Below, one piece after another: positions 12,319 through 64,000 of a stretch of DNA of 64,000 nt. Below the pieces are notes generated by a model. That model searched no databases. It was not told the DNA's origin and was given only the letters and a program-made list of their open reading frames with translations. The stretch covers positions 58,156,001 through 58,220,000 of the forward strand of contig NC_092350.1 of NCBI RefSeq assembly GCF_963676685.1. The letters are read 5' to 3'. Source of the DNA: Mytilus edulis. Lineage: Eukaryota. The translations under genes and the position numbers were made by a program. Within the stretch, counting starts at the first letter, position 1. Each line of letters begins with the position of its first letter.

Positions 12319-12379
12319 ATGAAATTTTGTTGTTTGATTGTAATCATCCTCTTCACAATTCGTGTTTCTAATGGCGGAA
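12319..12379 (+). CDS. Copy A coding exon 1 (signal peptide)
   Basis: ATG at 12319, MK + hydrophobic core MKFCCLIVIILFTIRVSNGG, phase-1 donor A|GTAAGT; conserved in copy B. Confidence 0.85.
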
Positions 12380-15244
12380 GTAAGTATTCTTTATGTTTAA
12401 TCGTACACAGGTGGGTGCTGTCATCACTTATACACCATGTTCACTAAAGGCCTAAACAAGATTTTTTTTGACTGATTTTTTTTCTGCTAAAAAGGTTAGT
12501 ATGTTACGGGTTCACTGTTGAGAATAAGGCGAAAGTCAAAACTAGTTCCGCATAATTGTTAAGTTTCAACATGATTCACATCAATACATAACTGTATTTA
12601 CGTGCAAGACCACTTTTAATCAATAAATGAGACTTATAAAATATCAAAGTATACAGCGATTGTATACAAAAGAGGTAAGGGGACATTTTATATTGGAATA
12701 AAAACCAAAGACGACAAATGTTGATGTTTGAAAGACACAGTAGTAAAAAACCATAATCGTTACTTTAGTTTAAACTAGCAGTTTATATTTCGTTTGTGCT
12801 GTTCTGGTGTGCTGTCGTAAATTCATTGGAGTTGTTATTCTGTAGTTTACATGTAATAATGTACTATTATACTAATTATTTATATATTTCTATGTGCTAA
12901 TGTTTTTGTGTTTGTTTGTCCTGTCTCGTAGTGTTGTAATTTTTTAGCGGAGTTTTGCCAACTTTGAAAAATATAAGCAGGAGGTTTGACTATCCATAAA
13001 ACCAGGTTCAGCCCACCGTTTTGGTCTTAAAATGTCCCCTTTCAAGTTAGGAATATGGCAGTTGTTTCAGATAGTCCGTTTCTATGTATGTTGGCGTTTG
13101 ATGTTGTTGATGTTTAACGATTCTGTTGTTTCTGGATTTTTTCCTCTCATAGTCAATGTGTTTAAGTTTGTTACCTGGATTTTTTTTATTATAGTAAAAT
13201 TATGACTTTTGAGCAACGGTATACTACTGTTGCCTTTATTTAGTTACCAGTATCTCTATATGGAGCATGCTGAAATTGATGTAACGATTTTTTCCTTCAA
13301 TTAAATTCGACAAAAAATTATAAATAACTTAATCTAATGTTTCTTTTAATTACATCTTATAGATAAAATGTTGTTCATATGAAGAATTCAACTTATATAA
13401 AAAAAGTAATTATGAAAGGTTTGGTTTTCAATCGATATGAACCTATTGTACTTTCCATAAAAGTATTACTGCAACGAAGATTTAAGATTATAACTAAACA
13501 CATTATCCTAAAAGAGTTATTTTCTTATTGTATAACGCAGAGTTTGAAGCTCATAATGTCACATTGTGTTAAGGTGGTACCCAACACTTTCACTAAAATT
13601 GAATTAGCTCGTTTAATTTTCATAAAATTGTGTCAAAGTATTTACTTTGACCCTTTAACAAAAATTTGAAAATTTTAAAAAATTTTGAACCAACCGTTTT
13701 GTCAGAAAAATTACACTGGTTATATAGCAGTTTGACAAACACCAATTTTGATCATTGAGAAGCTTAATATTCCCTTAACAACACAACGTAATTAAAACGT
13801 TGAGCTGATTTTACAGAGTTACCTCCCTGTAGTGTTAGGTACCACCTTAAGAACTTTACTCTTTAGGACTCACTGGAGATTGTTTGTCTACAAATGGTAC
13901 ATGTGGAACAAGCGGTGTTACTTGTGTTGCTGCGTTTGGTGAAGGATGGATATATAAAGGAAAATGTTGTTATGGAAAACCATGTTGTAAATGTAAGTAA
14001 TCTTATATACCATGCGACAGTTCCTTTACTTGTCCCTGCTATTCAAATAGAATGACACATAGGCATGTGTTGGAATAAAAGATCATATTGTAAATGAAAT
14101 TAAACAATGTTGTTAGCAAATTATAGAATATCTTGTTGGTTTTCCCTCCTTTAGATAGTATTTCTTAACTGCAAAGAACTCCAATGAAAGCGAATACTAC
14201 AAACCAACTTATTTTCGCAGATACTTAGTTTCGCGTTTAGCCTTTTCTAGCCCATTTCGACGCGATTTAATTTCGCGTTCTCAAATTTACGTAATGTAGC
14301 TAAGTAAGCAAAAATCCAAGTTTTACATATTCACGACGATTTATATTCGCGGTATTTTTCTTTTCGCGACAGTCGCGAAAACAAAAATCGCTTCCAAAAA
14401 TTAGTTGGTTAACAGTAGTTAATGTTTCTTATGACGACGACAGTCCCATCTCATGTTTAGAAATAACATATACAGTGCCCTGAAAACTTTTAAATTTGAA
14501 ATTTTAAACAAGATGTTCATGATGCGATCATGTTTTTGACATTGCTGCATGTATTTGGTACTGAGATGGTTTATTGCAAAGTTGACCTTAGAATGATTTG
14601 GTTAATTTTTGTATGTCATTTAAAAACAAAATATAGCCCTTCGAATGTTTCAGTCTATATACATCAAAGCATTCGGCTTAGAGCGTACCTTGTGAAGACT
14701 TCATAAAAACGCTTTAGACGCATGAAATTTACAAAGTGTTGTTTTCATTCTTTATGCTAGAGATTTCAGAATTCTGTTTTTTTCCGTGTTTGCTTTTGGC
14801 TTCGAACTTAACTTCATATTCACGTTTACGTAGTCATTGAGGTTTTCAGGATTATGTATGCCCAGTGTATATGCTCTTTCTTCAAGTTGCGTTTGAACTC
14901 CCGTTCTTCAGTCTTGGTCTACAAACTACCGTACATACATGTTTGATATCCTTTGAATTTATTTCATTTCGATTATTTATGAAAAATGGCTGACGATATA
15001 TTTGGACGTGAATCAGCTGTTATAGGTAAATGATAAGGAAAAATTATTTAAAAACTTCTTCTTTTGAACCTAACATTCTACTAAAATATATTATTTTAAT
15101 GAAAACCTACCAAGCCTTTGCTCTAATGTATAATCTGTTGAGCTTGGTATCAGAGCAGAACTTTTATATTTTTAACAGGCACGTGCACGTACATGTAATG
15201 CGATATGTTTAATATTTTATTTTACAGTTATCAAATATAATAAG

Positions 15245-15297
<53 letters not shown>

Positions 15298-18200
15298 CCA
15301 ATCAATCAAGTGATCAATCAATCAAATTATACTTTGAAAAAATGTTAATCTAAACAAATTATTTTTGTAAATAATTCCGCTCAAGCCGGTGCTAGGAGCC
15401 GTTTTAAACTTGTAGTGAGGTTAAAGTTTTTTTTAAGCTCCGTGTTGAAGGCCTCACTTTTTGATTTTGAGAACACCAACAAAAGCGCTCTTTGTGTGGT
15501 TTTGTTTTTGGGCCATGGATAGATACCCTATATCAATTTTTTTTCTATAAATGAATTATAGGTTTCCATTTTATCAAATTAAATGTAAAAAAAGATTACA
15601 GTGGAGAGAAAAGCTAACATAACAAAAAAAAAACTAACATGGCTAAGTTTTGAAGTTTAATATAATTGGTGAGTTTAATTTATAATCTATACCCTTTTTT
15701 TTGCACAGATTTTCCTGAAAGTAAAAACTACAGCTGTGGATTTGAGACTGTTGCATCATGTGTTTTTGAGGATTCCCTCCTTGATGATTTTGATTGGTCA
15801 CGACAATCTGTAAGTTTTTCAAATATCTGGTCTGCAATTCACAAAAAATCCGTTCGATTTACGACCAATGATATATTATACGTATAGTTTGTCAAGATAG
15901 GCGGACGATATCAAAATGAATATTTAAACTCAAAAGTCGAAAGAAAATGAAATTATATGGCTCCGCCCACATAGTCCGTATTCATATCTACATTTGGGAT
16001 TAGCTGAATTTATGGAGAACAAACTTATAAGTCAATGATATTTGTTATTAAAATGATTTAATATTTTAATATCTTGTTTGTTCACAGATTGTTTTTTCAT
16101 TGTAAATGTTGTATTCTTGTCTTTTAGTTTTGCGAATATACTTTGACTATAAGCCTTTTTAAACTTTTTTTCTTTGTTACACTTTTGTTTGCTTTTAAAA
16201 TTATTAAGATTGTAACAAAATGTTGATTGCTATACCACTATTTTGACATCTTTACTTATAATATCTCCTTGTTTTGTTCACAAATCGTTGTCAATTTAAT
16301 GGAATTCTATGCGACTGTCATACAATTAGGAGATTTTGCTAGCTTTAAAACCAGGTCTAATCTACCATTTTTACATTTGAAAATGTCTGTACCAATTCAG
16401 GAATATTACAGTTGTTTTTCATTTGTTTGATGTGTTTAAGCTTTTGATATTTCCATTTGTTTACAGACATTTCTTTTTAAATTTTACTCGGAGTTGGTTA
16501 TTTCTATTAATTTACTTTTTTCATAAAGTTATTCATATCTTGGATTAACGACTTTTCGTCTGCATAAAATATAAAGTTATAGTCAATGAAACATGATCAG
16601 GGTATTTCAGCTTTGTGAGGGAGTTCAACATAGATCGAACATTTTGAAACCACGAATTACAAACTGATTATTGTCAATATGGAAAGGGTGTTATTAAATA
16701 GATTAATTATTATTTTTATTATGAATTTAAGGGCTGACAACGGCTCGTTTCATTTTTTATATAGAAAGAAACTGTGCCTTACATTGTATTAACATGAGAC
16801 AAAAACATCATGAAACTTTAAGATCATATGTGAACTACCATTTAACTTCAAAGGATGTGGGGTTACGTTTTTTTTTATAAAAAGATATTCTGATCCCCAA
16901 TTTGATGACAAAAGTATTCTGTTCAAGCAGACGACAAAAAAAACCCATTATGAATGCAAATTTCCCCATACCTTATAGTGTTAAACTTTGCTAAAATAAA
17001 TAATTTGATTGATAATAAAAAATATCCCTCCCCCTTTTGAAGTTAAATGTTTTCTCCCTAAACTGACTATATGAAGACATCTAAATGTCTTTTTTTGTGT
17101 CAGGTTTTAAATCTTAAACATAATAAACGGAAATCTAATTGTTGATCAGTGTTTAAACTTTTTATGATTTAGGGTAAGACACCAACTTCGAAATGGAAGA
17201 CTGGGCCCTTAGCAGCGGCCGAGGGGACTTATTACATATACACAGAGGCCTCTGATAGGAGTAATGAAGATAAAGCTATACTCACAACCGAAGCTACTAG
17301 CTTACAAGCTAACTTTATAAGTACGAAGTTGGCATTTAATTTCATTTCTCCAGTGATTGCGTTCATTTAAATTTATGTTAACAAAACAAATGACTGACTG
17401 GGAGAAGGTTATTACCATACTTGAATGTACATACATGCCATCAGTAATGTCAGGACTGAGACAATATAAAAAATTCAGCTCATGATGTTCAAGGTCGGTT
17501 CTAGTTTAAGTTATTTTCTTTGTGGCTATCAACTTTCGTGATTTCTGAGAAAAAAAGTTGAATCCAGAGGATATAGATTTGTAGATTAAGGATAAACACA
17601 TTTGGAATTATCTTAAACTACGTTTTTCATTGAGACGGTAATGTCATGACTGGAGGGAACACAATAAATCACTACAATGATATAAAACAAAAAGGGTTTG
17701 TCAGGAATGGTGAGGTGTGTTATACTTGGAAAACCTTAAAATTTGCTTTATTTCACTTATATACCATATTATTTCCCGGTAAAAACATGCAGATTTGGAG
17801 GATACTATATCCCATTTTACCGTTCTTGCATGAAATATTCTTTCTTGATGTCTTTAGGTGTTATTCGTGGCTCGGTACTTATACATCCCGTTAATGTGTT
17901 TGTATTATCTTTCCTTTTTGCAAAGTCAGCACCAAATCTTTGAGCTCACGCTTGACTTACAATGAATTAATCGAGGATGATTTGAAAATTTGAAAATTGA
18001 ACTATTCACAACGAATCGTATAACATATAATGTCTTAATATTGAAGAACATGCCATATTTATCACACCTTTTGTATTAAAATGTACGTTTGTGCAAGGTC
18101 AATAAAAGCCGGGAGTTATCGAAATATCAATACTATTAGATCTCTTTATAGTATCTTGATTATAAGCTTTATTATTGCACATGTTGCAGCATGCCCTTAT

Positions 18201-21043
18201 TGTCTGTCCTTCAAGTACCATATGAGAGGGGTTGACATAGGATCATTAGAAGTATTTGCTGGGGATAAAACATCTTCTTTGACAAGTATCTGGAAAAAAA
18301 TAGGACCACAAACCGAAGATCCCGTTAAATGGGACACTGGAAATATAGACATACCACAATATAGTAATCTTGTTGTAAGTATAACTGTGGATTCATTTAT
18401 TTTCTTGGGTACCAATTTTCGTGGATTATGGAAAACTATTCAATTCCGTGGTTTTCCTAAAGTCTGCATAGAAACCAATGGAAAATTGTAATTCTTTGAA
18501 CATTTAAATTCGTGGTTCCCATTTACCAACGAGATCCACGAAGATTCGACGACAAATACTGTATCCATTGTATATAAATCATATATCAAATTAAAACTGC
18601 AACAGTAACTATGGTTATACCATAACAAAAATATCATGTGTAAGTATAAAAATTAACACAAAATAACTGAAAATGAAAGAAATGACAGTATAAACTTACA
18701 TTATTTTTGCGTCAGATAATTTGTTTAAACCTTGAGATATACCATAAAAGTACATATTATCCCGAGTTGTATGTTTTTGTTGCCGATCAAAATCTATAAA
18801 TATGTTCAATACATTTATTTATTAAGGGTAGCATGGCGATTTTTTTTTGCAAAAGGGATGGAATTCTCTTACTGGCTAAATCATGGTAAAAAATATTTAC
18901 AGAAATATTTTGAAAAGTAATATTTCCCTCTGTACTGTCTGGATTTCCCAAATTATAAAGTCAATAACCTGTTGTTCAGTGGTTGTCGTTTGTTGATGTT
19001 GGTCATACGTATATTTGTCTCATTTTTTGAAATAGATATTCGACCATTATTTTTCCTGCTTAAAATTGCTGTACACTCATTATGGGGACATTTTTAGCGT
19101 GCTGTTCGGTATTAGCCAAGTCTCTGTGTTAAAAGTTATACTTTGACCAATTATGATTTACTTTGTACAAATCGTTACTCTAATGCAGAGTTATCTCTTT
19201 TGGCACTCATACCACATCTTCATATATCTACTTAATATATTAAAAATACATTTTATTCACTATATTTAGTAAAGAAAGCCTTTTGTATTTACTCTATCAA
19301 ATATGGTTCTTCCACATTTTACAAGGCGGCACAAGTGTTCCCACTTTTTGTTTAATTTAGATTCAAATTACGTGGTATCTTTTTGATTCGCGTCACGGTG
19401 CGGAGCTATTTGTTTCAGTCGACATACACGCCATCTTGAGTAAATTACCTATCACATATAGATTCTGATAGATTGCATCATGATGCGGCAGAGATAATGC
19501 AACACCTATTGGCTAACAAAATGACATTAGAAATTACAGACTTTTCTCGTCTCTGGATAAGACATCAAATGCCGGAAAATTAACTATATGTATTTCAATT
19601 CCGATCAACTGTCGTTAATTCATGTTCGTTTTGATATGCAGTATGCACGATTTGCTTCAATTGCTAAACAAGGTTCCTATACAATGCATTATCTGTATTT
19701 CATAACTTCTGATAATCTAAGCACACCTCCAGTGTCGTGTTTATTTTTAATTGTTTTAATTTTCAACAAGTAATGAAACATTTTAGTGGCATTGGTATGT
19801 AACGCACACTCTTAAAGTAAATCCATAAATGCATCTAAATATACCACATTTGATAATACTAAATCAATAACAACATGTGAACATATTACCTTAAATTAGG
19901 AAAGAGCGAAGCAGTCCGTAGCTTTTCAGAAAACTCAAAACGGTATTGCGTTAAGGTTTACAACTTCTGAGAGAAGCATACTAGATTACACTTGGAAGTA
20001 CATGTAAAACACTTTCAAGTATAAATGATATAGGTGAACAAAAAAGGATTACACACTATGAAGTTGGTGTCTTTGCATGTCAATTATATTTTCAAATATT
20101 CTTGTTTTTTTCCAGGTCACAATAGTAGGGTCCTGTGGTGTTGGAGCGAGGGGTGACATTGCCATTGATGATATTTTACTAAAGGCTGGTGCATGTTGTA
20201 AGCGTTACTTTATTATTATCATTGAGAATGGAAATGGGGAATGTGTAAAAGAGACAACAACCCGACCAAAGAGCAGACAACAGCTGAAGACCACGTACTG
20301 ATGTGCAATTTACAATGTTATCAGGTAGTTTGTTCCAATCGGTTAAAGTTCCTTGGAAAATAGGATTCTTTTCTGTTCTGTGTTTTGCAAGACGGAATGT
20401 GAAAGCTGTTCGAGTTTGATTGTCTTGTTTGTCTTTTTTGTTTGATAAATGTATTATTCGTAGGTATTGTAACCTTTTCGTGTTTCCAACGCTTGAAGTG
20501 TTTCCATATTTTTTAGTAACTTACAACAATACATGGATAGCATTGAAAAAGTTCAAAGGAGGGATTCACGTTTTGTTACTAAAAAATATGGAAACACTTC
20601 AGGCGTTGGAAACATGTTCCAACACCTTGAATGGTGCAGCCTCTCTTACAGAGGAAAATATTCGAGATTAGTAATGCTATTTAGAATTGAACACGAAAAG
20701 GTTACAATACGTATATATTCGTATTCTACCTCTCGCTACATGTATAATAAAAAAATCGATGACAAACGTCCAAACCAGGATTGAAAAAAAAAATCTACGA
20801 CTACCATGAAGTTTATCTTAATTTAATGATGTTCGCAAGAAGTGCTTTTGAAGTTTTCCCAGATATACAAAATCCACTCGTTTTATCCATTTTCATTATT
20901 TAGTGCCGTTACAATATTTTCCTCGCTAACCCCTTCTTTTCTTTATATTATGTTATGACATATAGTTTAACAATTACTATCTAAAATGCTATAAAATCCT
21001 TGTTATATTTTTATATTTTTTTTCATCTTTTTTAGATGCTTGA
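12319..21043 (+). CDS. Copy A: secreted beta-defensin-like (Cys-rich) + MAM domain protein, spliced, 236 aa
   Basis: Manual splice model join(12319-12379,13867-13992,15709-15809,17173-17320,18190-18374,20116-20197,21036-21043) = 711 nt, all GT..AG introns, phases compatible. Protein: MKFCCLIVIILFTIRVSNGG-RLTGDCLSTNGTCGTSGVTCVAAFGEGWIYKGKCCYGKPCCK-YFPESKNYSCGFETVASCVFEDSLLDDFDWSRQS-GKTPTSKWKTGPLAAAEGTYYIYTEASDRSNEDKAILTTEATSLQANFI-TCPYCLSFKYHMRGVDIGSLEVFAGDKTSSLTSIWKKIGPQTEDPVKWDTGNIDIPQYSNLV-VTIVGSCGVGARGDIAIDDILLKAGACYA*. MAM hallmarks: CxFE..C, FDW, TPxxxxTGP, GxYxYxEAS, CLxFxYHM, GDIAIDDI..GxC. Confidence 0.88.
13573..13846. mobile_element. Non-autonomous Kolobok-type MITE
   Basis: TTAA TSD (13569-72, 13847-50); TIR ggtggtacc(c/t)aacact 15/16; single TTAA at the paralogous site in copy B (~62039-62042). 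Confidence 0.85.
13867..13992 (+). CDS. Copy A coding exon 2 (beta-defensin-like Cys-rich domain, 7 Cys)
   Basis: ctttag| acceptor, T|GTAAGT donor, phase 1-1; C-x6-C-x6-C-x13-CC-x4-CC. Confidence 0.85.
14195..14418. mobile_element. TACTGT..ACAGTA-type MITE
   Basis: tactacaaaccaact...agttggttaacagta imperfect TIRs with internal TTCGCG repeats; not seen at the equivalent place in the copy B intron. Confidence 0.55.
15245..15325 (+). repeat. (AATC)n microsatellite
   Basis: Direct reading. Confidence 0.95.
15709..15809 (+). CDS. Copy A coding exon 3 (MAM domain N-terminus)
   Basis: ttgcacag| acceptor, |GTAAGT donor; NYSCGFE..SCVFED..DDFDW (inside ORF 15666-15887). Confidence 0.88.
17173..17320 (+). 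CDS. Copy A coding exon 4 (MAM)
   Basis: tttag| acceptor; GKTPTSKWKTGP..EGTYYIYTEAS..KAIL. The 3' boundary is less certain (A|GTACGA donor at 17321). Confidence 0.8.
18190..18374 (+). CDS. Copy A coding exon 5 (MAM)
   Basis: ttgcag| acceptor, |GTAAGT donor; CLSFKYHMRGVDIGSLEV..IW...W (inside ORF 18081-18491). Confidence 0.9.
18383..18570. mobile_element. MITE fragment (ACTGTGGATTC terminus), related to 53503-53698
   Basis: actgtggattcatttattttcttgggtaccaattttcgtgg matches the TIR family at 53503-53698. Confidence 0.5.
20116..20197 (+). CDS. Copy A coding exon 6 (MAM C-terminus)
   Basis: ttttttccag| acceptor, T|GTAAGC donor; GDIAIDDILLKAGAC (inside ORF 20077-20301). Confidence 0.9.
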
Positions 21044-49201: not shown

Positions 49202-49638
49202 GTTTTTACTATCCACAGCGGTCACTGATATATTATATACAGAGAAGATATCTCACTTCGTACCTTATCACCTATTTTCCTACGTGAATTCTAGGGGGAA
49301 TAACTTCCTATCAAATATTTAATTTCATTTAGGTCAGTAAGCTTTAACCGTTTTTGCAAATACTCCCCTGTTTAATGTGCCATGGCTTTAGATATAAATC
49401 GACCATCGTCATTTCGTCTTATTTTGATTCTTAATTGACGGAAGTATTGTATGGGCGACAACTTTAAATCCGGTTCCTGCATCAAATGTTCCGAATGTTA
49501 TTGAACAACATAATAAGATACGAGAGTATCCCATGACAGTTTAAAGTATAAATAAACTGTAAATTTGCTCGAGTTTATTTAAATTTTAAACTGTTATAGG
49601 AAACTCTGGTACCTTATTGTGTTGTTGAATAACATCAA

Positions 49639-50013
49639 GAGTCGTGGTGAAGTGGTTAATGCATCGGACTACTAACACAAAGGTTCCTGATTCGATTCCC
49701 GTTCCGGGATGAAAATTTCAGGGACTGAATGTTCGAATCTCCCTTGACACCATTTGCGAGTATGGTCTTGAGGAAACGATGATAATCCGTCGGAAGGGAA
49801 CGATAAATGGCTGACCCGTGTCAAGAGAGAGTCATATCTCTTGCACGTTAAATACACCATTGTAGATTTCGAAAAAGAACAGGCTAATGCCGCTACAAGG
49901 CAGCACTCGCACCCTCACCCGCAAAGTGGAAAGGGAATATCTATGACGAGTTTATTTAATACAAGTTACAAAACTTGTTTCCCAATCCACTATATATAAA
50001 TATGTTGAAACTA
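49639..50013 (+). mobile_element. tRNA-derived SINE with Deu/Nin-type core
   Basis: A box tggtgaagtgg, B box gattcgattcc, core ccgtcggaagggaacg..gcacgttaaa; short TSD ATCAA; absent at paralogous site ~37385. Confidence 0.8.
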
Positions 50014-53000
50014 ATCAATAGTAATTAAGTTCATGTATACGCTTCGGAATTGTGTGTGATATCCATTTTCATTGAACAAGTTCACAAATTTCTTAAGCCA
50101 GCCTCCTGGTGCGGGATTTGCTCGATGTGTTGAAGAACTATTGTGGCCTTTGACTGTTTTTGCTATTTTGTCGGGTTGTTGCTCTTTGATGTATTTCCAA
50201 TTTCCATTCTCAATTTAATAAAATTACTTTTGTTTGTCGCTGATATATAGATCATTGCAAATATCTCCCCACTGATCCATTCATGCACAAAACAAGTACT
50301 ACTTGGCATATGAAAAAAGTAAATTAGAACTGTGAAAGTACTGTGAGTCGGTTTCACCAAAAAAAAAAATGGACTAAGATCGGTTGTAATTATACTGAAT
50401 TGTTCATGACTTTTTTTATCAATCTTAGTCGTATGTTTTTTTTGTGAAACTGACTCCTGTAATGTAATCAGGTAAAACTAAGAAACATACCAATTTATTA
50501 TACACTAACCATTTTCATATTTGACCTCAGAGAAAATGTATATCATTGAAATGTATAATATGTATAAATATTTTCTGTGATTTGAAAGAGACCTGTGAAA
50601 TTCCGATGATGAAGTCAATTAAGATAGTGTGGATAACATAAACAAGATGTAACAACATCAAGATGTAAATAATTTACACAATCATTCGATGAACGAAGAA
50701 AAACAAAGTCTGTAACAAATCATGGTTGCATACCTTGTCAGTATCATTAAAGCACTTTAATTTGCGAGTATTACAAATATCAAGACCAAATGACGTATTA
50801 ATAAATAAAAGAAAGATTACAGTTTCTGTAAACTATTTCCGATATATTTACCAGGCAAAACTATTTGTTTTGATGTTTAAATATGTTACAAAATAGTCCC
50901 AAGTCCTGTAAACCTTATACATATCTTCGTTTTGACAAAATGTTATATTAATGAATAAAGGAACGATCATAGTTTCTGTAAACATACTTTATGTCTATAG
51001 CAGGCTTAAATGTTTATATCAATAGTTAAACTCGTGAAAAGAATGATCGCAACTTCTATAAACTACATGTCCAATGAATGTAAGGACAACATATAATATT
51101 ACCAATTATAAAAAAGGATCACAGGTTCAGAAATTTGTTGTTCATACCTTGTATCATCAACAGACATTTTATTTCATAATCAAACAAAGGAGTATTAAAA
51201 ATTGTATGACGATCTACGTGGACATACGTTTTAAGATTTTCACATTTCATTCTTGACTACAAAGAAAAATATATAATTATACTTTACATATACATTATAT
51301 TTACTCTTTAAAAGAAACATGTAAAAATTTGCTGATAAAATCACGCAATGATTATGTTGATCAAGAAGTAATTAATAAAGTTTGAATAAGATATTCGAGA
51401 TGTAACAAGTGCAACATCCAGATGTACATAATTTGCATAATCAATTTGATAAACAAAGAAAAACAAAGTCTGTTACAAATCATTGTTGCAAAACTTGTGA
51501 TTTAAGTAATTTAATTAGCCTTAACTTGCAAATACAACGAAAAAATACTTTTATAAGAAATATCATAACAAAATGATATACTACCAAATTAATGAAAGAA
51601 CACAGTTTCTGTAAACGATACCCAACATCAATTTCAAGCAAAAACATTTGTAATAATGATCAATATAAAAATAAGAAGATGTGGTATAATAGCCAATTTG
51701 ACAACACTCAACTAGAGACCAAATTACATAGAAGTTAACAACTATAAGTCAGCGAACGGCCGTCAACAATAAGCAAAACCCCTACCGCATATTAATGCAG
51801 CTATAACTGGCGTACAAACATATCAAAAGAAGGGTTACAAACCGTATGTCATATCTGCAATGGCAGAACAAAATAGTCTATTCATGAATAAAGGAAAAAT
51901 CACAGTTCTTTAAACCTTTCTATTATATATCTTTACCAGGCAAAACAAAAATATATTAATCATTAAACATGTTATAAAAGAATGATCTCAACATGCACAA
52001 CTTCTGTTGATGACATCCCTATCTGCAATGTAAGGAACACATATTATACCAATTAATAAAGGAAAGATAACTTTTTAAGAAAACCATACTCTTTATCTAT
52101 ATCGGGTAAATATAATTATATTTAGGATAAGAAATGTTAAAAGAATAATCCTATCTTAGATAAACAAAATCTTATATGTATGTACGGACAACATATCATA
52201 TTACTGAATAAAGGGAAGATCACACGATCAGAAATCTGTGGTCCGTAAATTGTATCATCGACAGACAATTTTGTCATAAGCAAGTAAAGAAGTATTAAAA
52301 AAATGTGTGAACTACCTGTACTACATATACTAATTTGAAGAAAAGCTATTATATATGAAGAATGAACAAAAAAGTATAAAGTGTGAACTTTGCTAAGTGG
52401 TAATGTAAAATCAATTTTAAATAAAATTCAACTGATAACAAAACCATTTCGACTAACAAATATATTAATGTCACGAATAAAAATATATTCGCTTATTCAC
52501 AGAATCCATTGAAGACAGTAACTGTGACCGTTCTCTGTAATGAAAAATTTAGGGAAACACCGGTTTATTACACATTTAATATTTTCATATTTTACTCTAG
52601 ACTAAACAGGAAATTAAATATTTGCACTTTATATAAAAATAAGAACAAATAGGTCTTCAACACAGATAGACAATTCCGCTTCCGTCGGCGGGTTTCAGCT
52701 AGCCCCTAAACAAAAAAAGTTAGTTGAATATGGTCGTCATACTAAACTCCAAAGCATATAAATGAACCAAAATGATAAAAAAAAATTCAAGACTAACAAA
52801 GGCCAGAGGCTCCTTACTTGGAAAAGTCGCACATATGCGGCCGGATTAAATATGTTTTGTGCGATTTCAACCCCCTCATTAAAATAAACATGTAAATTTT
52901 TGCTGATTAAATCATAATGTTGATGTTATTAAATATTCCCGATATTACAAATGCAACATCAAGAAGTGCATAGTTTGATATAATCAATTTTATAAACGAA

Positions 53001-53502
53001 GAAAAACAAAGTATGTTACAAATCAATGTTGCATATCTAGTCAATATTCTTGAGTACTTTAATAAGCCTTAAATAACAAATATTACAAAAACAAAAACTT
53101 TAAATAGCTACCAGGACAAACTGATATATTAATGAAATAATAGAAAGATCAAAGTGTCTTGAAACTATTTCTATATCTTTACCATGCAAAATTATTTGTA
53201 TTGAATTGATGACTAAATATAGTTAAAGGATTATCTCAACATCTATAAATCATATCTCTATGAATGTAAGAACAACGTATGGTATAAACAAAGAACGGAA
53301 AGACCACTGCTTTAGAATTCTTTGGTCTATGCACTATATCTTCAAGAGGACAACACTTTTTTTACAAACAAATTTAAAAGGGGTATAACAAATTGTGTTA
53401 TATAACGCGTTTAAAAATTTATATTAAAGAAACACTTTCAAACATAAAAAAATTAAAGAAAAATAAAAAGTGTGACCTTTAGTTATTGATAAGCTTTTAG
53501 AA

Positions 53503-53698
53503 TACTGTAAATTCATTTTATTTGTTTGTAACCAATTTACGAGGATTTCGTTGGTACATTGAAACCACGAATTTAAATGTTCGACGATTTGCAAATTTAC
53601 TGTATGATTAAATGCAGATTTTTGAAAAACCACGAAATCAAATATCCACGAAAATGCAAGTTTTCCAAATCATGAATCAAATAAATGAATCCACAGTA
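53503..53698. mobile_element. TACTGT..ACAGTA MITE
   Basis: tactgtaaattcatt ... aatgaatccacagta. Confidence 0.6.
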
Positions 53699-54089
53699 CA
53701 TATTTGTTATTTATATTCTAATTCGTCAACTCAAACGAATATAAATTATTTAATAAATAAAACAACACATAAATAGGATAAGAGTGCCTACAGCTGTAGC
53801 AGCCTTTTTGGTGTTGGTCGACTGGCATAGGCAAGGATTTCCATACTCCACATGAAAAAATATCTGAAAAACGTGCATATGAAATAGAAATATAATCTAC
53901 TATACTACTAGCTTACAATATAATTCAATGACCTTGCCAGATTTATTTTTCACACTGGCCATGTCAGTGAGACCTTGCCTATTAAATTTGGCCTTGTCAT
54001 CAACACACGACCTTGCCAAAAAATTGGCCTTGTCTTTACTATGCGACTTTGCTCAACAGACTTGTCGTAAATTCTTACGTGAACTCAGC

Positions 54090-56050
54090 GTTCAATCTTA
54101 TAGCTAAAACACTAGAAACGTATTCAGAAGATCCCAACAAGGACTTATTATTCATACCATGAATAAAAATGTTCTGATTTGGTTGAAATTCTAAAACATC
54201 AGTTACATATGGTTGCAAATGAGAACCTCTTTTAAAAATCATTGTCCAAATTTAAAATGACGAGGAAGGCCACTTTGGAACTATCAAAGTGCCTCTAGCC
54301 TTACATAGAATCAAATGTTTAATTGCTCTACAGACAACAGAAATTGGAGGAACAATCCAATTAACTTCATTATTCCAATTTTGCGTGAACGCATCAACTT
54401 CTTCAACACCTGGATTCCAGAATTTAGAATTAAACCTGGGTGATTTTTTATTTAAATTACTCGCAAACCTGTCCACAGTATGCGGACCCCACATATCAGC
54501 TATAAATTAAAAAAAATCTACGCTTGTTCCCCAGTCTTCTATATCAATGATTTTTGAAATATAATCAGCTTTAGTATTTTCAGATCTCGGGATCCAAACA
54601 ACATCTAACGTAATATTCAATTCAGAACACAACTAAAAAATATGCATAGCTATCTCTTGTAAATGTACTTTTGTTCTTACTTTCTGAACAATGAAAACAC
54701 AGTTATTATTATTTGTATGCCATTTAACACATTTATTTCCTAAACGGTTTTTAAAATACATCAATGCCAACAAAATAGCTTGACGTTCTCTCCATGTAGA
54801 ACTCTGTATGGACTCTTGTAAAGTCCACATCTGATGAAAATTATTAGAGTCAATACCTATCGAGTAAGCACCAGCAGCTACATTACTAGCATCGGAATAT
54901 ACAATCACGTGGGGAAAAGAATAACCTGCTAAATGTTTTATGTTCAATCTTAAAATGTTATTCAGCCAAAATGAGAGCTCATTGAATACACAATCGGGAC
55001 ATTCCAATATTAACTTTAAATCCCACTTTACTCTGTTTTCAATAGCCCAGTGTAAATAGCGGGTCATTAAACTAGTTATGTTACCCATGACTGGAAACAT
55101 AGAAGTTACCTTTCCCGTTACCTGAACCAATTTTCGTGCTGTGAAATTAGGAAAGTTATTCAAAACATCAACCAATGATGTTAGGGTATTTTCAATCCGT
55201 CTATCTGATATACTAATTGAAAAATCAGACGAATTCCAAACTAAACCTAACCACTCTAAACATTGGACTGGTTCAAAAATAGATTTGTCCATGTTAATAA
55301 GAAACCCTGCTTCTAACAAAGACGTTTTCACAAAAGATGAACATTCGGAAGCTTCTTGTTTATTTTTACCCATTCCAAGTCCATCATCTAAATGAAGCAC
55401 ACTATCTACGCCATTTTCTCGCCAGTATTTTACGATTGGACGTGAACATTAAGTGAATAGATATGGAGCAGATGAAAGACCAAAGGCTAACACTGTAAAA
55501 CAGTAAAATTTATTGTTCCAGCAAAATCCTTAAGATCAAACTTAAACTGATAGCAATCTTTTGTGAAATAGTTTAAAGCCACTTTCCAGTCTTCAAATTT
55601 TATTCTTTCTTTTTTAATAAAAACATTCAGTTCACTTAAATCCAAAATCAGACGTTTTTTGCTCGAACTTTGAACTGCAACACTAAGCGGACTTACAACA
55701 AATGGTTGAAATGGAGTTTCAATAACACACCCGATATTAAGTAATTCTGAAATTGCTTCATTTACAAATTTAGAATGGACATTAGAAGCTTTGTTATTCT
55801 TAAATGACATAGATGTAGGAGTCTGCAAAAAAGGAATAACGTATCCACTTTTGATAGTATTTATAACGAATTCATTAGCACCTATGTGTTTCCAAAATTG
55901 TATGTGCTTGCGTAAACTATATTTCACCCCTTTTGCGACAGATGAAATATCAATATTATCAAAATATTTTGCATGTGACATAAACAGTTCAAACTGTCCG
56001 TAAAGATTACTTTCATCTAAAAAAGTAGTATAAAAATACTTATCATTAAT
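54090..56050 (-). pseudogene. DIRS pol: RT - RNase H - methyltransferase-like, disrupted
   Basis: GYVIPF, VSPLSV, KKRLILDL, FDLK, LHLDDG (RT), YSDAS and SSTWRE (RNase H), WGPHTVDRFAS..NSKFWNPG..VDAF..W..NWIVPP..PKW (MT). Confidence 0.85.
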
Positions 56051-56855
56051 TCTGTAGCCTTGTTGTCCCTGGGACACCTGGTTTAGTACTGAATAGGAGG
56101 GGGCACTGAGTTCGCCAGTGACCAAGTTGGTTGCAGTTGTAACAGATGTCATGAGATGAGGGTTCCCTCTGTCTGCCGGTCCGAAAGGGCGGCTGTTGGT
56201 AGTTGTTTTGTCTAACGTTATGTTGATTAGGCATAGGTGCAGAAGGAGCAGAAACAGTAGCTGTAGCGGATCTATAAGGATGAGGTCTTTTCTTTTCCTT
56301 AATACTCCTGATGGCACGGGTTTCTGCAGAACGAATGCGCTTCTCATCTTCAGAGTCGAAGGCAAGGTCGTCGCTTTCATATTCACGGACGGTTTTCCAT
56401 CCTGCGGGAGATTTGTCTGCAATGCGGATGAGTTTCTTTCGCTTCTTAACCTTAGGGATAGCTCCAGATACCAATTTAAGACATGCTGTATCTTCATCAG
56501 GAATACGCTTCTGGAGCTTAACAAAGTCGGCCATGATTTCACAATTAAAGTTGAATTATATCTGGTTGCCCTCACCTTTGAGTTTAACTGAAACTTCCTG
56601 CTTGAGTTTGGTAGCAAAATTCTCGTTGCCAACTGTCAAATCTTTGTGTAGAGTAGCGATCTTCCCGTCAAGATAGGTTTTAAACAGAGAGAAAGTATCC
56701 ACCAAGTCGTTATTCCCAGTATGATGTGCAGAAATACCATCACGCAACGAATGTACACTAGTACCAGCTGGCAGAGATTCATGGTCGGAATCTAGAAGTT
56801 TCTCGGAGTCAGACATACCACAATAACGAATGCTGCTACGTTGAACTATAGGCAA
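56046..56855 (-). pseudogene. DIRS gag-like ORF (stop-interrupted), CCHC knuckle
   Basis: KRKKLIRIADKSPAGWKTVREYESDDLAFDSEDEKRIR motif and CYNCNQLGHWRTQC. Confidence 0.8.
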
Positions 56856-57354
56856 ACTTCGAATAACTTAATTTTCTCAAACTTACCTCTTAAGTAATAC
56901 TTAATTATGCTTTTCACGAAAATCATGAGGGCATATACACGTAAAACCGGCAATACGGGTATATGCCATCCAATCAAATTGAACGTAAACACACACCATG
57001 TGTTTGATATAAACACACACACGTGTTTATAGTAAACAATCACTTGACCGTTACAACGTCATGTGACTTAATACCTTTAATAAATATATATATAGATCGA
57101 TTCCACTGATTCAAATTTCATCCCGACACTGTAGAAATTGGCCGAATTAAAACAATTTACTTACAAAGGTCAAGGACGACAGTAATTTCGTCGATTCCTG
57201 AACATGTATATTGTAAAGTTCACATAAATACCAGTGTATCACACATTTAGGATTTCACAATGGACCAAACATAACAATAAATATACCATTGCATTGATAT
57301 ATGCGATATCATAACTAGAATCAACTTAGTCTAATCTTATTTAACAATGTAGAC

Positions 57355-57565
57355 GTCATAGTTTGCTTAGTGGTCTAGGTAGTGAAACTACTGCATCAAT
57401 AGCCTTTCAAGAGTAAAGTTAAATCCTTCACGTGCCAGCTGCCACTACTCCAATCTTAATTGACTAGGATTGTCAGTTTTCATACCGCATGTCGATGGTT
57501 GACAGCCACGAAAAAACTAAATAGTGCTGAAAGTGGCGTTGATTACCAATCAATCAATAAATCAA
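57355..57565 (+). mobile_element. Degenerate SINE upstream of copy B (paralog of 10930-11155)
   Basis: Aligns with 10930-11155 including tail gctgaaagtggcgttga + (AATC)n. Confidence 0.5.
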
Positions 57566-58495
57566 CTAACGTAGAGAGTATTACGTTTATTAATCAACGA
57601 CACTTAAGATTGCAGATTTCAATTTTGTCAGCTTAACTTGATACCTAATGATTTTTTTCTTCTTTAAAAATCCTTAAATCATCATGTTTTGTCAATCTTG
57701 GGACAGAAAAGTCTACATGAGGTACTTCTTTGCAGTGAACATATGACAAAAATTATCCTATGCTGGTTGCAGTCTTGTAAACAGCTTCGTAGGCTTACAT
57801 GCAAAACAGCTGATCTTTGAAGATAAAAAAATAAAAAATGCTACAGAAAAAAAATCATGTTCATATCATGTATGTAATACTGTGTAATTGTGATTTAATT
57901 GATAAAAAGATGGTCAAGCCACGAAGAATGAAAAGTTACGTAACCCTGAAGTCAAAACATTTTTTTTTGGTTTCTGCTTGCTGTTTTTAGTAGACCGCAG
58001 CACTTCCAGTAATTTTGATACCGTTCCACTTCCCTTGATTGATATCCCCCAAAAGATGCAAGTTTGTTTTTAAATCTTTACATATGTTTCAATTTAGCAT
58101 TACCTTTTAATCAAACAGAAAAAAATGAGTCCAGAACAAAATTCTATTTTATCTATCTCCATGTTTTGACATGCACCGGAAACTGGAGTTGTAATACAAG
58201 ACTTGTATCTAAAACGTAAAATTTGGTACAATTTTATTCACATTTTGTGGAATTAAAAAAAATACATACTTTAAAATTGTCTTTCTGGTTTGAAAGACTA
58301 CACGTACAGGTAAAAATTGGCTGAGGTGAAATATATTTGAAGATGTGAAAATGATTTGCATAAGAATACAGATGTTGCACGCCCAAACAAAATTTTGCCT
58401 ATTCAGCAAAATTCAACAAAGATAAACAACATATGTCACTAATTATTGTTTCACACCTACAGCATTCTTCGATTAGATACTTTAATTGCATCTGC

Positions 58496-58561
58496 TATTT
58501 AAGTAGCCACTTCCCTTAAACAAGTTATCTTGTTATCATAGGTCTACTATTACAGATTGCG
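58496..58561 (+). promoter_or_regulatory. Putative TATA-like box and short non-coding first exon of copy B
   Basis: TATTTAAG at 58496-58503, then ~60 nt ending in G|GTAAGT (58562); block conserved upstream of copy A. Confidence 0.45.
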
Positions 58562-58640
58562 GTAAGTGTTCATTTATTTTCTTAGAAACGAAAATCCGTC
58601 TGATCTGAAATTGTCAGCTTTTGTTGTTTGTTCAGATTTT

Positions 58641-59672
58641 TATACGCCCGTCAAAATTTTGACGGGACGTATTATGGTTATACAAATGTCCGGTGTCCGT
58701 CCGTCCGTCCGTCTGTCTGTCTGTCCGGCGTAAACATGTCGCACCGTAACTTTAGAACGACTTATCCAAATTTCATGAAACTTAACATAGTTGTTTCTTA
58801 TGATGGTCAACTGATCTGCATACTTTTTGGTGAAAATAAGATTAAAACTTTTTGAGTTACGGCACAGGGGTGTGTTTTTTTTTACATGTCGCACCGTATC
58901 TCAAAAACAATTCTCGATTATGGCTTAAAACTTTAAACACTTCTTAGTTATATTAATCTTAATATCTGTATACTTTTTGTGATGATTCAAAATTTTATTT
59001 TTGAGTTATTGAGTATTTTGTAAAAAAGGGGGAGGGTTTTTTTACATGTCGCACCATATCTCAAAAACGATTTATGATTATTGCTTAAAACTTTACACAT
59101 GTCTTTGTTATATTAATCTGAAAATCTGTTTACTTTTTGGTGATGATTCAAAATTTCATTTTCGAGTTATTGAGTATTTTGTAAAAAAAAAAGGGGAGTT
59201 TTTTTTTTTACATATTGTGCCATATCTCAAAAACAATTTATAATTATTGCTTAAAACTGTACACACTTCTTTGTTATATTAATCTAAAGATCTGTATACT
59301 TTTTGGTGATGATTCAAAACTTTATTTTGGAGTTATTGAGTATTTTGTTAAACAGGGGAGGTTTTGTTTACATGTCGCGCCGTATCTCAAAAATAATTTA
59401 TGATTATTGCTTAAAACTTTACACACTTCTTTGTTATATGAATCTAAAGATCTGTATTCTTTTTGGTTTTGATTCAGAATTTTATTTTAGTGATATTTAG
59501 TTTTTGTAAAAAAAAAAGAAAAAAAAACAGAGTTGGGGGTTTCACATGTCCCGCCGTGTCTCAAAAACAATATATGGTTATTGCTTAAAACTTTCTCTGA
59601 AACTATTTATGATTATTGCATAAAACTTCCACACAAGACGTCGGGCGTATCATGCGCTCATGGCGCAGCTGT
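58641..59672 (+). mobile_element. Non-autonomous Helentron-type (HINE-like) element in copy B first intron
   Basis: subTIR atacgcccg / cgggcgtat, 5' hairpin cccgtcaaaattttgacggg, (GTCC/GTCT)n, five to six ~165-bp tandem units, 3' hairpin tgcgc..gcgca; absent from copy A. Confidence 0.85.
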
Positions 59673-60699
59673 TTATTAGACACTGAAAACAAAAATATCC
59701 ATTATGTAAATAAACGTAAGGTTATTGACACAATAAAACTGTTCTAAATCTTTTTATATGCTCAATTGGGCCAGTGGGCCAAGTGTTTTTTTTTTCATCA
59801 CTTGGCGGCGTAGTCCGTCCGTAGTCCGTCGTTAACTTTCACAAAAATCTTCTCCTTTTGCATCTACTTTGCCAAATTTAACCAAACTTGGCTATAATCC
59901 TCATTTGAGTATCTTGTTTAAATACGTGTCCAATGACCCGCCAATACACTTTCAATGAGTAATTTGATTGTTAAGAGCTAGCTTTAATAAAAAAGGAGAT
60001 ATGGTATGATTGACAACGAGACAACGATCCATAATTTTTTTAATGAATGGATTTTAGCAATTATGAAAAACTTTACGGCGTTAAATAAATAGAAAACTTA
60101 ATACCGCATAGCCGGCTATACAACACCCCGCCGACATCAATTGATCACAACACATTTGAATATCATAATATATGGGTTAGATAAAAGAACAAGGGGTAGG
60201 TAGAGAAAACAGGAAATTTGATTCTGAAATAATCCTTCAAAATTACATTTGAAATTAAGATAAAAAAAAAAAAAGGAAAAACCCACATAGAGGCATTAAA
60301 GTATTTGACAAAAATTAATAAATATTGCAATGTCTTTTTTTAAGCAATGAGTAATATTAAGGCGTACTGAAAGTTAAGTTAAGTTCACATATAAAGACAT
60401 ATATCATTGTTGTGAGCAGCCTAGAACATAGTGTATATATCTGAATCAACTCAATCATAAGGATAAATAAGTGCCTTTATAGAAAAAAAACAACAAAAAA
60501 ACACCGTCTGTTCGGCTGTTTATTAGTGACTTCGAAGTTGAGTTTCAGCATATTTTAGAAGCTTGAAGCTAGCAATCAAAATTTATCATCTAATGCATAC
60601 AAGTTAAACAAAACTTGCTACTAAATATGAAGCAATATATAATCGATGTTTACAAATTGTCACATTTTTACAAATTTTCTCTTTTAGTATTACAGTATC

Positions 60700-63070
60700 A
60701 TGATGAAATGTTGTTGTTTGATTGTAACCATCTTCTGCGCAATTCGTGTTTCTCATTGCGGAAGTAAGTAACAGTTTATGTTAATTATTAAAGAGGTGGG
60801 TGTTATTACTCATACACTATATAAAACAGAATATGTGATATGATTGCCAATGAGACAACTCTCCACAAGAGACCAAATGACACAGACATGAACATCTATA
60901 GGTCACTGTACAGCCTTCAACAATGAGCTTTACCATACTCAATAAATTACCAAATGACTAAACAAGATGTATGGACTGTTGTTTTGTCTGCCAAAAAGTA
61001 ATTTTGTGACAGGTTCACTACTTAGAATATCTTGGGGCAAAAGTCAAAACCAGTCCCGCTTGCATATTAAGTTGAATATGATTTCACAGCAATACATAAT
61101 TTTATTTATGTGCAAGAGCACGTTAATTTAATCCATTAGACTTGTATACAATAAAGGTGAGGAGACATATAAAGTAGAATACAAAACAAAAGTCTTCAAG
61201 TGTTAATGTTTGAAGACACAATAGGAAAATGCACATAAGCGTAGCTGAAGGTGAAACTCGCTTTTTTATTTCGTATGTGGTGTCCTGGTGGGTTGTCGTA
61301 AATTCACGGAAGGTGTCCGTTGTTATTCTGCGGTTTAAATGTTGTAGTGTACTATTATATTATTTATTGATATACATTTTTCTAGGGTTATCATTTTAAC
61401 GGACATTTTGCCAACATTATTATAAACATGATATAAGTGGGAGGTTTGACTATCCAAAAAACCAGATGTAACCAACCATTTTGTTTTTCAGAAATATGGC
61501 AGTAGTATCACATATTGCGTTTCTAGGTATATTGGCGTTTGCATTTGTTGTAGTTCAGTGTTTCTATTGTTTTTTTTCCTCTCAGAGTTGATGTGTTTAT
61601 CTCGATTTAAGTTTGTTACCTGGATTTGTATTTGCTTAGTCAAGTAATGACTATTGTACAGTGGTAAACAACTGTTGCCTTTATTTAGTTACCGGCATCT
61701 CGATATGGGTTTTTCTGAAACTGATGTAACGAATGTTTCCTTCAATCAAATTCGAGTAAAAAAAACTTAATTCAATGTTTCTGTCAATTAATCAATTAAT
61801 TTATCACAATAAAATGCTGTTTACATGAAGAATTCATCTTATAATTAAAAAACAAAATCGGTATAGTGAGATTTTGTTTTCAATCGATATGAACCTATTG
61901 TTCCTTTTTTTTAAGTCATTAATGCAATGAAGAATTTTACTTAAAGATAATGACTACTAAAATCCAGTTTATTTCCTAAAAAATGTTAATTTCTTATGGT
62001 ATAATGCAGAGTTTCGAGCTTTCAATGTCACATTGTATTTAAGTACTCTACTATTTAGGACTCACTAGAAATTGTCTGACTTCAAATGGTAAATGTGCAA
62101 GAAAAGGTGTTGCTTGTGATGACGCGTTTGGTGAAGGATGGATAGACAAGGGAAAATGTTGTAATGAAAGACCATGTTGTATATATAAATGTCCAAGTAA
62201 GTTAACACAGAAAACATGCGATAGCTCTGGTCCCTTCTATTCAGAAGTCAAACATAGGCATGTATTGGAAAAACATCATGCTGTAAATTAAATTTAACAA
62301 TGTCATATTGTAAGCAACTTGTGTGATAGTTTGTTGGTGTCCTCAAATTCCAAGAACACCAATAAAAGCGAGAAGTTCACGTGTTTGTGAATTGAATTGA
62401 GCCATCATTAAGGATACACCGGAAGAATGAGATTAAATTGTAAGAAGTTATTTAATAATTTCTGCTAAGTTTGGGGATTATAACCCGTTATTTTATAACT
62501 AATTTTTGAACCATAACGATTTGAACACATCGCGATTTGATTTATGTGATCTGAAAAAAATTCAGAAATGGAATCATTTAGTAACTCGTCCTAATAACGG
62601 CTACCTCTGTGCAACTTTGCTTACATGACAGGTTTTTTACATGATTCAAATGACCGATTTCATCCCGTTCTTTGTTTTTTAATCTACAGTTACACCTCTG
62701 CAGCTCATTTGTTTTTTGTTTGTGTTTTTTTGTGGTGTTGCTGTGCATGTATTTACTTTGTGTCATGAAAAGATAACAAATATAATTGTTTTTGTTTTTT
62801 CTAATAATAAATTATTAGTTTCAATTATATCAAAATAAATAATAGACAAACTAAAACAAAACAATAAGATAACTGTGAAGAGAAAGCTATCATAACGAAA
62901 ACCACGACTTAATTTTGAAGTCTAATAGAATTAGTCCATTTTAATGCCTAATCTATATTTATTTTTGCACAGATTTATGTAGAAGTGCAAACTACAGCTG
63001 TGGATTTGAGGATCATTCATGTGTTTTTCAGTTTGATACCCTTGGTGATTATGTATGGTCATATAAAACT
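60700..63070 (+). CDS. Copy B (paralog): secreted defensin-like + MAM protein, 3'-partial (continues beyond window)
   Basis: join(60700-60763,62059-62196,62973-63070,...): MMKCCCLIVTIFCAIRVSHCG-RLTRNCLTSNGKCARKGVACDDAFGEGWIDKGKCCNERPCCIYKCP-NLCRSANYSCGFEDHSCVFQFDTLGDYVWSYKT. Same intron phases as copy A, canonical GTAAGT donors, and the introns also align to copy A. Confidence 0.85.
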
Positions 63071-64000
63071 GTAAGTTTTAAGACAGGTTCTGCATTCTAT
63101 AAAAAAAAACCAAAAAAAAAAAAACCGGTCGATTTACGACCAGTGATAGATGACAAGATGAGAATCGAACGATATCAAAATAAGTATTTAAACTCAAAAA
63201 GCGATTACACAAAATCTTTTTTTAACAAGACGACCTACTTATGTCAGCCAGTAAAATCAAAGTATAGCTATGTTTAGTGCAGATGCATGAACAAACAAAA
63301 TTGACTATTCCGACTAACAACCCCTTTAAACTCCCTACTTTTTTTTCGGTTACAAAAGATAAAATGAATTTGTAAAAAAAATATTTGGCGATTTTATTTC
63401 TACAAACGTTGGCATACTTTTTTAAAATTATGAAATTAGACAACAAGTGAATAAAAATTAAATCAAAAGGGCAAATAGACCCTGGGCGAACAGGTAGTAG
63501 GCGAACAGCTACTAGGGCGAACGTGATTCAGGGCAAACAGATCCAGATTCCTGAATACACGATTATATGTTCAGATGAATTCATAATTAGTATTAAATGC
63601 CTATTCTTTCAAACATTGTTGTGTTGATGAAGCTAAATAACGATTCATTTTATAATTCATATGAATGTGTTACACTAAGCGCAAATAATAAAAATTCTTA
63701 TTTGAAATACGGGGGTAAAATGGAACAGCTCAACATAACCATCTGTATACGGCTTTCACAGTTGATAAAATTACCGTAATTGTCCTTTTGAATCGGAATA
63801 ATTCATGGCAGCCGTAGATTTGTTTTCATTTAACCATGGATTTGGCATTTATATTCGTATTTTTCTACTCGCTAACACTCGGAATAAAATGATCGAATAC
63901 AAATGCTACACCCACTTCTAAATGAAAAAAATCTTTGAAATTCTTCATTATATTGCCCGCCCTTCGTATTCATTTCTACATTTTTCATTAGGCGAGTTTC

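What the first reader, a model, noticed from the sequence alone, without database searches (positions are those of the whole stretch)
60700..63070. Second tandem paralog 48 kb downstream: a locally expanding defensin-MAM family
Seen: same exon phases, alignable introns and upstream DNA, same strand. Inference: part of a tandem array, a pattern typical of rapidly evolving invertebrate immune families and possibly subject to presence/absence variation.
Basis: partly seen in the sequence, partly recalled or inferred. Interest (0 to 1): 0.7.

Follow-up and report, generated by a model that had tools for sequence, protein, structure and literature searches.

The report
Mussel gene array with fast-evolving MAM
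This is an intact mussel gene, one of five same-strand tandem copies, that joins a small cysteine module predicted to fold like a beta-defensin to a MAM domain; the MAM part rather than the defensin-like part changes fast between copies, so the family likely makes secreted, variable binding proteins rather than antibiotic peptides.

Summary
Confirmed and extended. Copy B (window 60700 on) is an intact seven-exon Mytilus gene: signal peptide, seven-cysteine module, one MAM domain, 236 aa. It lies 48,381 bases from copy A, with matching intron phases and alignable introns. A and B are 57% identical in protein, so they are not haplotypes. Beyond the window lie copies C (broken), D and E, then two inverted copies. 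All six introns are bridged in 2 of 4 RNA-type runs laid. The module is predicted to have a beta-defensin fold, but it is not tied to MAM: it has at least 104 genomic matches and also fronts C-type lectin, Sushi, fibrinogen and EGF domains. The scan noted this module twice before on other DNA. New here: the MAM domain carries the diversifying selection (site test P about 1e-7 to 1e-11, repeated in a second clade), while the module stays conserved. Likely a secreted recognition protein with a constant cap and a variable head; ligand and immune role are untested. Presence/absence variation is not shown, and E may be a duplicate haplotype of B.

The parts
60700..60763 (+). Copy B exon 1: start codon and predicted signal peptide, phase-1 donor
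   Evidence: joint to exon 2 in RNA-type contigs X16 and X17; the signal peptide is read from the sequence, no predictor was run
62059..62196 (+). Copy B exon 2: seven-cysteine module with predicted beta-defensin fold, plus a short tail with an eighth cysteine; phase 1 on both sides
62973..63070 (+). Copy B exon 3: linker and start of the MAM domain. Exons 4-7 follow outside the window in L001 (417-546, 2954-3138, 3825-3906, 5373-5386)
57276..60699 (+). Upstream DNA of B, homologous in blocks to the upstream DNA of A (10845-12318) and part of the duplicated unit
50287..64000 (+). In-window part of the 21-33 kb tandem unit that recurs as copies C, D and E at mostly 88-98% identity
53716..57086 (-). 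Retroelement-like insertion (zinc-knuckle ORF) upstream of B, shared with E and absent from C and D; marks B and E as the youngest pair
12319..21043 (+). Copy A, seven exons: 12319-12379, 13867-13992, 15709-15809, 17173-17308, 18190-18374, 20116-20197, 21036-21043; exon-4 donor reads CT instead of GT in this assembly

Best explanation
The finding is an intact tandem copy of a Mytilus gene for a likely secreted two-part protein: a conserved seven-cysteine cap predicted to fold like a beta-defensin, and a single MAM domain that diversifies fast and likely binds varying outside ligands such as microbial or particle surfaces. Shown: gene structure, array, splicing of this gene type, partner census, and the contrast in substitution pattern. 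Inferred: the array grew by unequal crossing-over with exchange between copies; the cap is a phase 1-1 exon pair (signal exon plus cysteine exon) that has been shuffled onto MAM, C-type lectin, Sushi, fibrinogen and EGF exons; its spare cysteine would link chains into oligomers or staple the cap to the partner; selection on MAM loops would tune binding specificity.
For: Intact frame and splice sites. All 6 introns bridged in X16 and X17, 3 of 6 in X15, none listed in X19 (the runs are guessed to be RNA). Array and unit junctions; informative sites switch from D-like to C-like around exon 5 (61 sites). Fold: model pLDDT 88.8 from 68 sequences; the top 17 Foldseek rows are beta-defensins and the top 7 VIA rows too (best Z 4.7, rmsd 1.9, 37 aligned); the only PDB sequence hit is a defensin-like peptide, E 0.0087. 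Shuffling: 72 of 77 module exons have the phase-1 acceptor and 71 of 77 a phase-1 donor; of 65 loci read 8 kb downstream, 36 C-type lectin, 10 Sushi, 9 Sushi plus lectin, 8 MAM, 1 EGF, 1 none; one fibrinogen partner; MAM-fused modules are rejected as one clade, AU p 0.0275. Selection: MAM exons 3-5, 12 paralogs, M2a versus M1a 2dL 37.6, 20% of sites at omega 2.9; 2dL 17.9 after dropping columns near gaps; a separate five-gene clade gives M0 omega 2.3 and 2dL 50.4. The module in 10 such genes gives omega 0.32 and 2dL 0. B versus D: exon 5 differs at 29 of 175 sites against 84 of 2853 in flanking introns (P 1.5e-12), with 17 changed residues and 2 synonymous codons; exon 2 differs at 2 of 138. 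All seven cysteines are invariant in 68 of 68 modules; 38 of 48 annotated proteins have an odd cysteine count from the module on.
Against: No ligand, tissue or infection data for this gene. The module has only 40 codons, so the selection test has little power there, and between A and B its dN/dS is about 1.2 on few sites. Exchange between copies can inflate site tests, and my codon code is home-made with branch lengths only rescaled after M0. The fold matches are weak in absolute terms (no Foldseek E below 0.001, Z under 5). Among MAM-fused proteins only 5 of 9 have an odd cysteine count, so the spare cysteine may often pair inside the chain. The module is cationic (net +3 in B; 50 of 68 at +3 or more), which fits a direct antimicrobial or membrane-binding role as well. 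MAM domains are enriched in the digestive gland of another mussel (PMC5549309, passage), which fits feeding or metal handling as well as immunity.
Confidence: 0.55

Rival explanations
1. Guided antimicrobial: the cap is a working defensin-like killer or membrane binder, and the partner domain aims it.
For: Beta-defensin-like fold; cationic modules, median net +4; phase-1 intron in front of the cysteine exon, as in beta- and big defensins (PMC7203481, passage).
Against: The module is the conserved part, not the diversifying one. It has seven invariant cysteines, not six. 38 of 68 modules carry an N-glycosylation sequon. No annotated free peptide was found: one unnamed 52-aa hit among 192 short candidates. 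The four loci that first looked module-only had lectin or fibrinogen exons downstream.
Confidence: 0.2
2. Non-immune secreted adhesion or handling protein (mucus, digestive gland, metal binding or gamete recognition), with the same anatomy.
For: MAM is enriched in the digestive gland of Mytilisepta (PMC5549309, passage); a scallop midgut MAM protein binds cadmium (PMC12357810, passages); gamete proteins also evolve under positive selection (own knowledge).
Against: Birth-and-death of many copies with diversified heads fits host-microbe conflict better than metal binding (inference); sister genes carry lectin, Sushi and fibrinogen domains typical of bivalve immunity (own knowledge).
Confidence: 0.2
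3. The young copies are partly an assembly artefact or neutral duplicates: E is B's other haplotype and exon-5 differences come from gene conversion, not selection.
For: B and E differ at 76 of 8925 aligned bases and 1 of 711 coding bases, below the 1.73% mean heterozygosity of M. galloprovincialis (PMC7653742, passage). Mosaic informative sites.
Against: Four young units exceed two haplotypes. E's upstream DNA joins C-D spacer sequence to B-like sequence. Divergence peaks inside exon 5 and is mostly non-synonymous; no closer donor for D's exon 5 exists among B, C, E or G. The five-gene clade on another chromosome repeats the pattern. This rival does not touch A versus B.
Confidence: 0.05

Closest known systems
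[quoted passage not shown]
   Same: Predicted helix plus three-strand fold matching hBD-1, hBD-2, AvBD3 and CpoBD13; six of the seven cysteines can be read as the beta-defensin frame (inference from the fold match); phase-1 intron before the cysteine exon (PMC7203481).
   Different: Seven invariant cysteines with longer spacing; sits at the N-terminus of a larger protein; no hydrophobic big-defensin N-domain; conserved rather than diversifying; activity untested.
MAM-domain proteins (MDGA1, neuropilin, enteropeptidase, meprin; Pfam PF00629)
   Same: One full MAM domain, Pfam E 1e-20; best solved relative MDGA1 MAM, E 1.7e-13.
   Different: No Ig, CUB, protease or membrane parts in the 236 aa; the public name 'MAM domain-containing GPI anchor protein 1-like' reflects only the best hit. 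Here the MAM is multi-copy and under diversifying selection.
Expanded bivalve secreted recognition families (C-type lectins, fibrinogen-related proteins, C1q-domain proteins)
   Same: Small secreted proteins, tandem arrays, pseudogenes, fast change; sister genes with the same cap carry lectin and fibrinogen domains.
   Different: The variable head is a MAM domain, and the N-terminal part is a defensin-fold module instead of a coiled coil or collagen stalk (own knowledge of those families). The lectin survey PMC10140915 has no hit for 'defensin' or 'MAM' in its main text.

Membership tests
beta-defensin / trans-defensin | Three antiparallel strands with beta-defensin fold | tested here: met
   Predicted only: pLDDT 88.8; best matches all beta-defensins, Z 4.7, rmsd 1.9, 37 aligned; scores are low, as expected for 45 residues
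beta-defensin / trans-defensin | Six cysteines (PMC7203481) | tested here: not met
   Seven invariant cysteines in 68 of 68 modules
beta-defensin / trans-defensin | Pairing 1-5, 2-4, 3-6 | not testable with these tools
   The folding tool returns no coordinates or bond list
beta-defensin / trans-defensin | Phase-1 intron in front of the cysteine-rich exon | tested here: met
   72 of 77 module exons
beta-defensin / trans-defensin | Released as a free small peptide with antimicrobial activity | tested here: inconclusive
   RNA-type contigs splice exon 2 onto MAM exons; cleavage after translation and activity cannot be tested
big defensin | [quoted passage not shown] | tested here: not met
   The module follows the signal peptide directly and precedes MAM
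MAM domain (PF00629) | Full-length profile match above the curated cut-off | tested here: met
   74.6 bits against 26.4, profile 1-157 of 158
MDGA (MAM domain-containing GPI anchor proteins) | Ig and FN3 domains before MAM and a hydrophobic GPI signal after it | tested here: not met
   236 aa, MAM is the only Pfam family, and the chain ends four residues after the last MAM cysteine
Mytilus dispensable (presence/absence) genes | Absent or hemizygous in some individuals | not testable with these tools
   Only contigs were served, which show presence; two papers' supplements gave no usable entry

The most novel reading that the evidence does not exclude
Mytilus has evolved a modular recognition system: one constant defensin-fold cap, still being exon-shuffled, carries interchangeable variable heads, and among them the MAM domain, known as an adhesion module, has been turned into a hypervariable binding head that differs between copies and between individuals.
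Probability: 0.35. Interest if true: 0.75.

Novelty: new variant of a known kind. Interest (0 to 1): 0.5.

Why it matters
Tandem immune-like families are common in mussels, so the duplication alone is ordinary. What is less ordinary is a secreted single-MAM protein under strong diversifying selection in two separate clades, riding on a cap shared with lectins, fibrinogen, Sushi and EGF proteins. If it binds microbes, MAM joins the short list of domains that invertebrates use as variable recognition heads, and the B/D pair (21 MAM residue changes, one in the cap) is a ready natural experiment. It also shows a defensin fold reused as a conserved structural module, and flags a set of genes that public annotation misnames.

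Tried and rejected
Single-sequence fold of the whole protein failed (pLDDT 34), so selected sites could not be placed on a model. The two-copy complex job on the module gave no answer (score 0.02). The run search listed no holder on record as RNA; six runs are guessed RNA and I laid four of them on B, and three of them plus one DNA run on A. Four small runs with next to no words are no evidence of absence. The protein atlas gave no usable hit. A recalled name, D8C, found nothing relevant. A recalled lead, that mussel sperm lysin M7 might carry this module, found no paper and no such name among the 72 hits; it stays untested. Stand-alone defensin genes: four loci with only exons 1-2 matching MAM genes proved to have lectin (3) or fibrinogen (1) exons. 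Read-through of the exon-2 donor gives an eighth cysteine and a stop in 29 of 77 exons, but this follows from the donor consensus and I have no transcript for it. Not in print as far as searched; subscription journals are not in the library. Supplements of PMC7653742 had no whole-word hit for MAM; those of PMC10514466 had one MAM-named gene classed as core, which I could not link to this family; figures and files not held may bear on this.

Full report
Observation. A self-comparison of the window shows the block 10845-15935 repeated at 57276-63199 on the same strand at 66-77% identity. Copy A has seven exons between 12319 and 21043. Copy B starts at 60700, 48,381 bases later, with exons 60700-60763, 62059-62196 and 62973-63070 in the window and four more in the next 5.4 kb. 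Intron phases are 1,1,0,1,0,1 in both. Intron 1, intron 2 and upstream DNA align with scores 543, 79 and 309, against at most 33 in 20 shuffles each. B has GT-AG at all six introns and an open frame of 236 aa. A public Mytilus edulis protein (P0008) equals this model, which also gives the genus.

B's MAM exons are intact. A and B differ at 98 of 229 aligned residues, with dS 0.22 and dN 0.30, so they are paralogs. Contigs of four runs guessed to be RNA, from four studies, were laid on B: X16 and X17 bridge all six introns at the predicted ends, X15 three of six, X19 none of those listed. At 90% likeness these joints can come from close copies, but exon-5 pieces in X16 and X17 match B without a difference, so the B/E type is transcribed.

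The array. Downstream lie C, D and E on the same strand at spacings of 21, 32 and 32 kb, then two inverted copies about 110-130 kb after E. Units are mostly 88-98% identical with many indels. C has lost most of exon 1 and has a one-base insertion in exon 5; D is intact; E differs from B at 1 of 711 coding bases. A retroelement-like insertion at 53.7-57.1 kb is shared by B and E only. Informative sites link B with D in the 5' part and with C around exon 5, which points to exchange between copies. B and E differ at 0.85% of aligned bases, below the 1.73% heterozygosity reported for M. galloprovincialis (PMC7653742, passage), so E could be a second haplotype; four young units cannot all be. A close copy G sits 57 Mb away on the same contig.

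The cysteine module. Pfam does not know it. A genome search gave 104 matches among 115 candidates, a lower bound. I fetched stretches around about 80 further loci; 68 distinct modules aligned with seven invariant cysteines, a glycine and a tryptophan. Folded with that alignment, the module reached pLDDT 88.8. Its best structural matches are all beta-defensins (Foldseek E 0.33 and weaker, TM 0.60; VIA Z 4.7, rmsd 1.9, 37 aligned), and the one PDB sequence hit is a defensin-like peptide at E 0.0087. So 'defensin-like' is fair for the fold. It is not a member by the six-cysteine definition (PMC7203481, passages), though it shares the phase-1 intron in front of the cysteine exon.

The module is not tied to MAM. 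Of 65 loci read 8 kb downstream, 36 continue with C-type lectin exons, 10 with Sushi, 9 with Sushi plus lectin, 8 with MAM, 1 with EGF and 1 with nothing found; three more have lectin and one fibrinogen exons. Annotated proteins agree. The exon has phase 1 on both sides (72 and 71 of 77), the usual mark of a shuffled module. In a tree of 66 module exons, A and B fall in a weakly supported group (83/94) with lectin- and fibrinogen-fused modules; holding the 13 MAM-fused ones together is rejected at AU p 0.0275, and the EGF-fused module sits next to a Sushi-fused one. All 72 hits of the longer-protein search are named Mytilus. The full HMMER scan gave 26 hits; of the 12 new ones I looked up 10, of which 8 are Mytilus and 2 unnamed. 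The scan had already noted this module and its partners twice on other DNA; I had reached the partner census before reading those notes.

Where the fast change lies. In MAM exons 3-5 of 12 paralogs (copy C left out, E identical to B), a site model with a positive class beats the neutral one by 2dL 37.6 (P 7e-9; 20% of sites at omega 2.9), while the module of 10 such genes gives omega 0.32 and 2dL 0. The MAM result holds without gap columns (31.3) and without columns near gaps (17.9), in a five-gene clade on another chromosome (M0 omega 2.3, 2dL 50.4) and in B, D, G alone (31.2). Model-free: B and D differ at 29 of 175 exon-5 sites against 84 of 2853 in the flanking introns (P 1.5e-12), with 17 changed residues and 2 synonymous codons, but at 2 of 138 sites in exon 2. 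Caveats: home-made code, exchange between copies, only 40 codons in the module, and between A and B the module's own dN/dS is about 1.2 on 21 changes.

Mechanism. Most likely the product is secreted, with a constant cap and a variable MAM head that binds outside ligands; conflict with microbes is the usual cause of such a pattern (inference). The seventh cysteine likely links chains or staples cap to partner: 38 of 48 annotated proteins have an odd cysteine count, though only 5 of 9 MAM-fused ones, and related sequences are not independent. Rivals are a guided antimicrobial (the cap is cationic) and a non-immune secreted protein of gut, mucus or gametes.

Presence/absence variation is not shown. 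Fourteen runs hold 0.59-0.69 of B's words, and B-, D- and G-type proteins occur in other public Mytilus assemblies. There are hints of variation in gene state: X15 carries a C-like exon 5 (10 of 14 listed letters shared with C) that crosses C's insertion site with no gap, and A is spliced at the normal place in X15 and X17 although its exon-4 donor reads CT here.

Papers: passages of PMC5549309, PMC10140915, PMC12357810, PMC7203481 and PMC7653742; supplement searches of PMC7653742 and PMC10514466; all others only as search listings. Nine searches found no description of this family; subscription journals were not searched.

Verdict. The duplication is real and ordinary for Mytilus. The added value is a MAM domain under diversifying selection behind a conserved, shuffled defensin-fold cap. 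New variant of a known kind; interest 0.5.

Noticed in passing
window 17308-17310 (copy A, exon-4 donor): The donor reads CT where all paralogs have GT; a weak in-frame GT lies 12 bases on. A contig of DNA run X1 covers the site with no difference there, while RNA-type contigs of X15 and X17 (another allele) splice at the normal place. Copy A may be splice-impaired in some animals.
   Followed up: partly
L002-L003 (copy C, G000:C7:58.2377-58.2463 Mb): Broken here (exon-1 deletion, exon-5 insertion), but C-like exon 3 and exon 5 occur in spliced contigs of X16 and X15, the exon 5 without the insertion.
   Followed up: partly
P0007, P0009, P0010: Public isoforms join B's exons 1-5 to C's exon 6: either a merged gene model or read-through splicing between tandem copies.
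   Followed up: no
L121:4145-7424: Run X15 shows a joint that skips exon 5 (185 bases, frame-shifting).
   Followed up: no
L096 and L097 (C14:14.36 Mb, C8:14.75 Mb): Nearly identical modules followed by Sushi in one and EGF in the other: a very recent partner swap.
   Followed up: partly
L031-L032 (C7:58.89 Mb): Module fused to fibrinogen-domain exons about 0.7 Mb from this array.
   Followed up: partly
L028:3640-4500 and L134: Tandem repeats built from the end of MAM exon 6 (44-base unit behind copy G; about 86-base unit at C9:87.85 Mb).
   Followed up: no
window 42170-46678: Broken LINE-like element on the minus strand (endonuclease and zf-RVT frames) between A and B.
   Followed up: partly
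window 36651-39851 and 48433-53340: An older, 68-87% identical duplication of the spacer upstream of B, with no module or MAM exon found in it.
   Followed up: no
window 58640-59676: Inserted element with a tandem unit of about 162 bases, also at 4019-4404 reversed; present upstream of B, D and E, absent at C.
   Followed up: no
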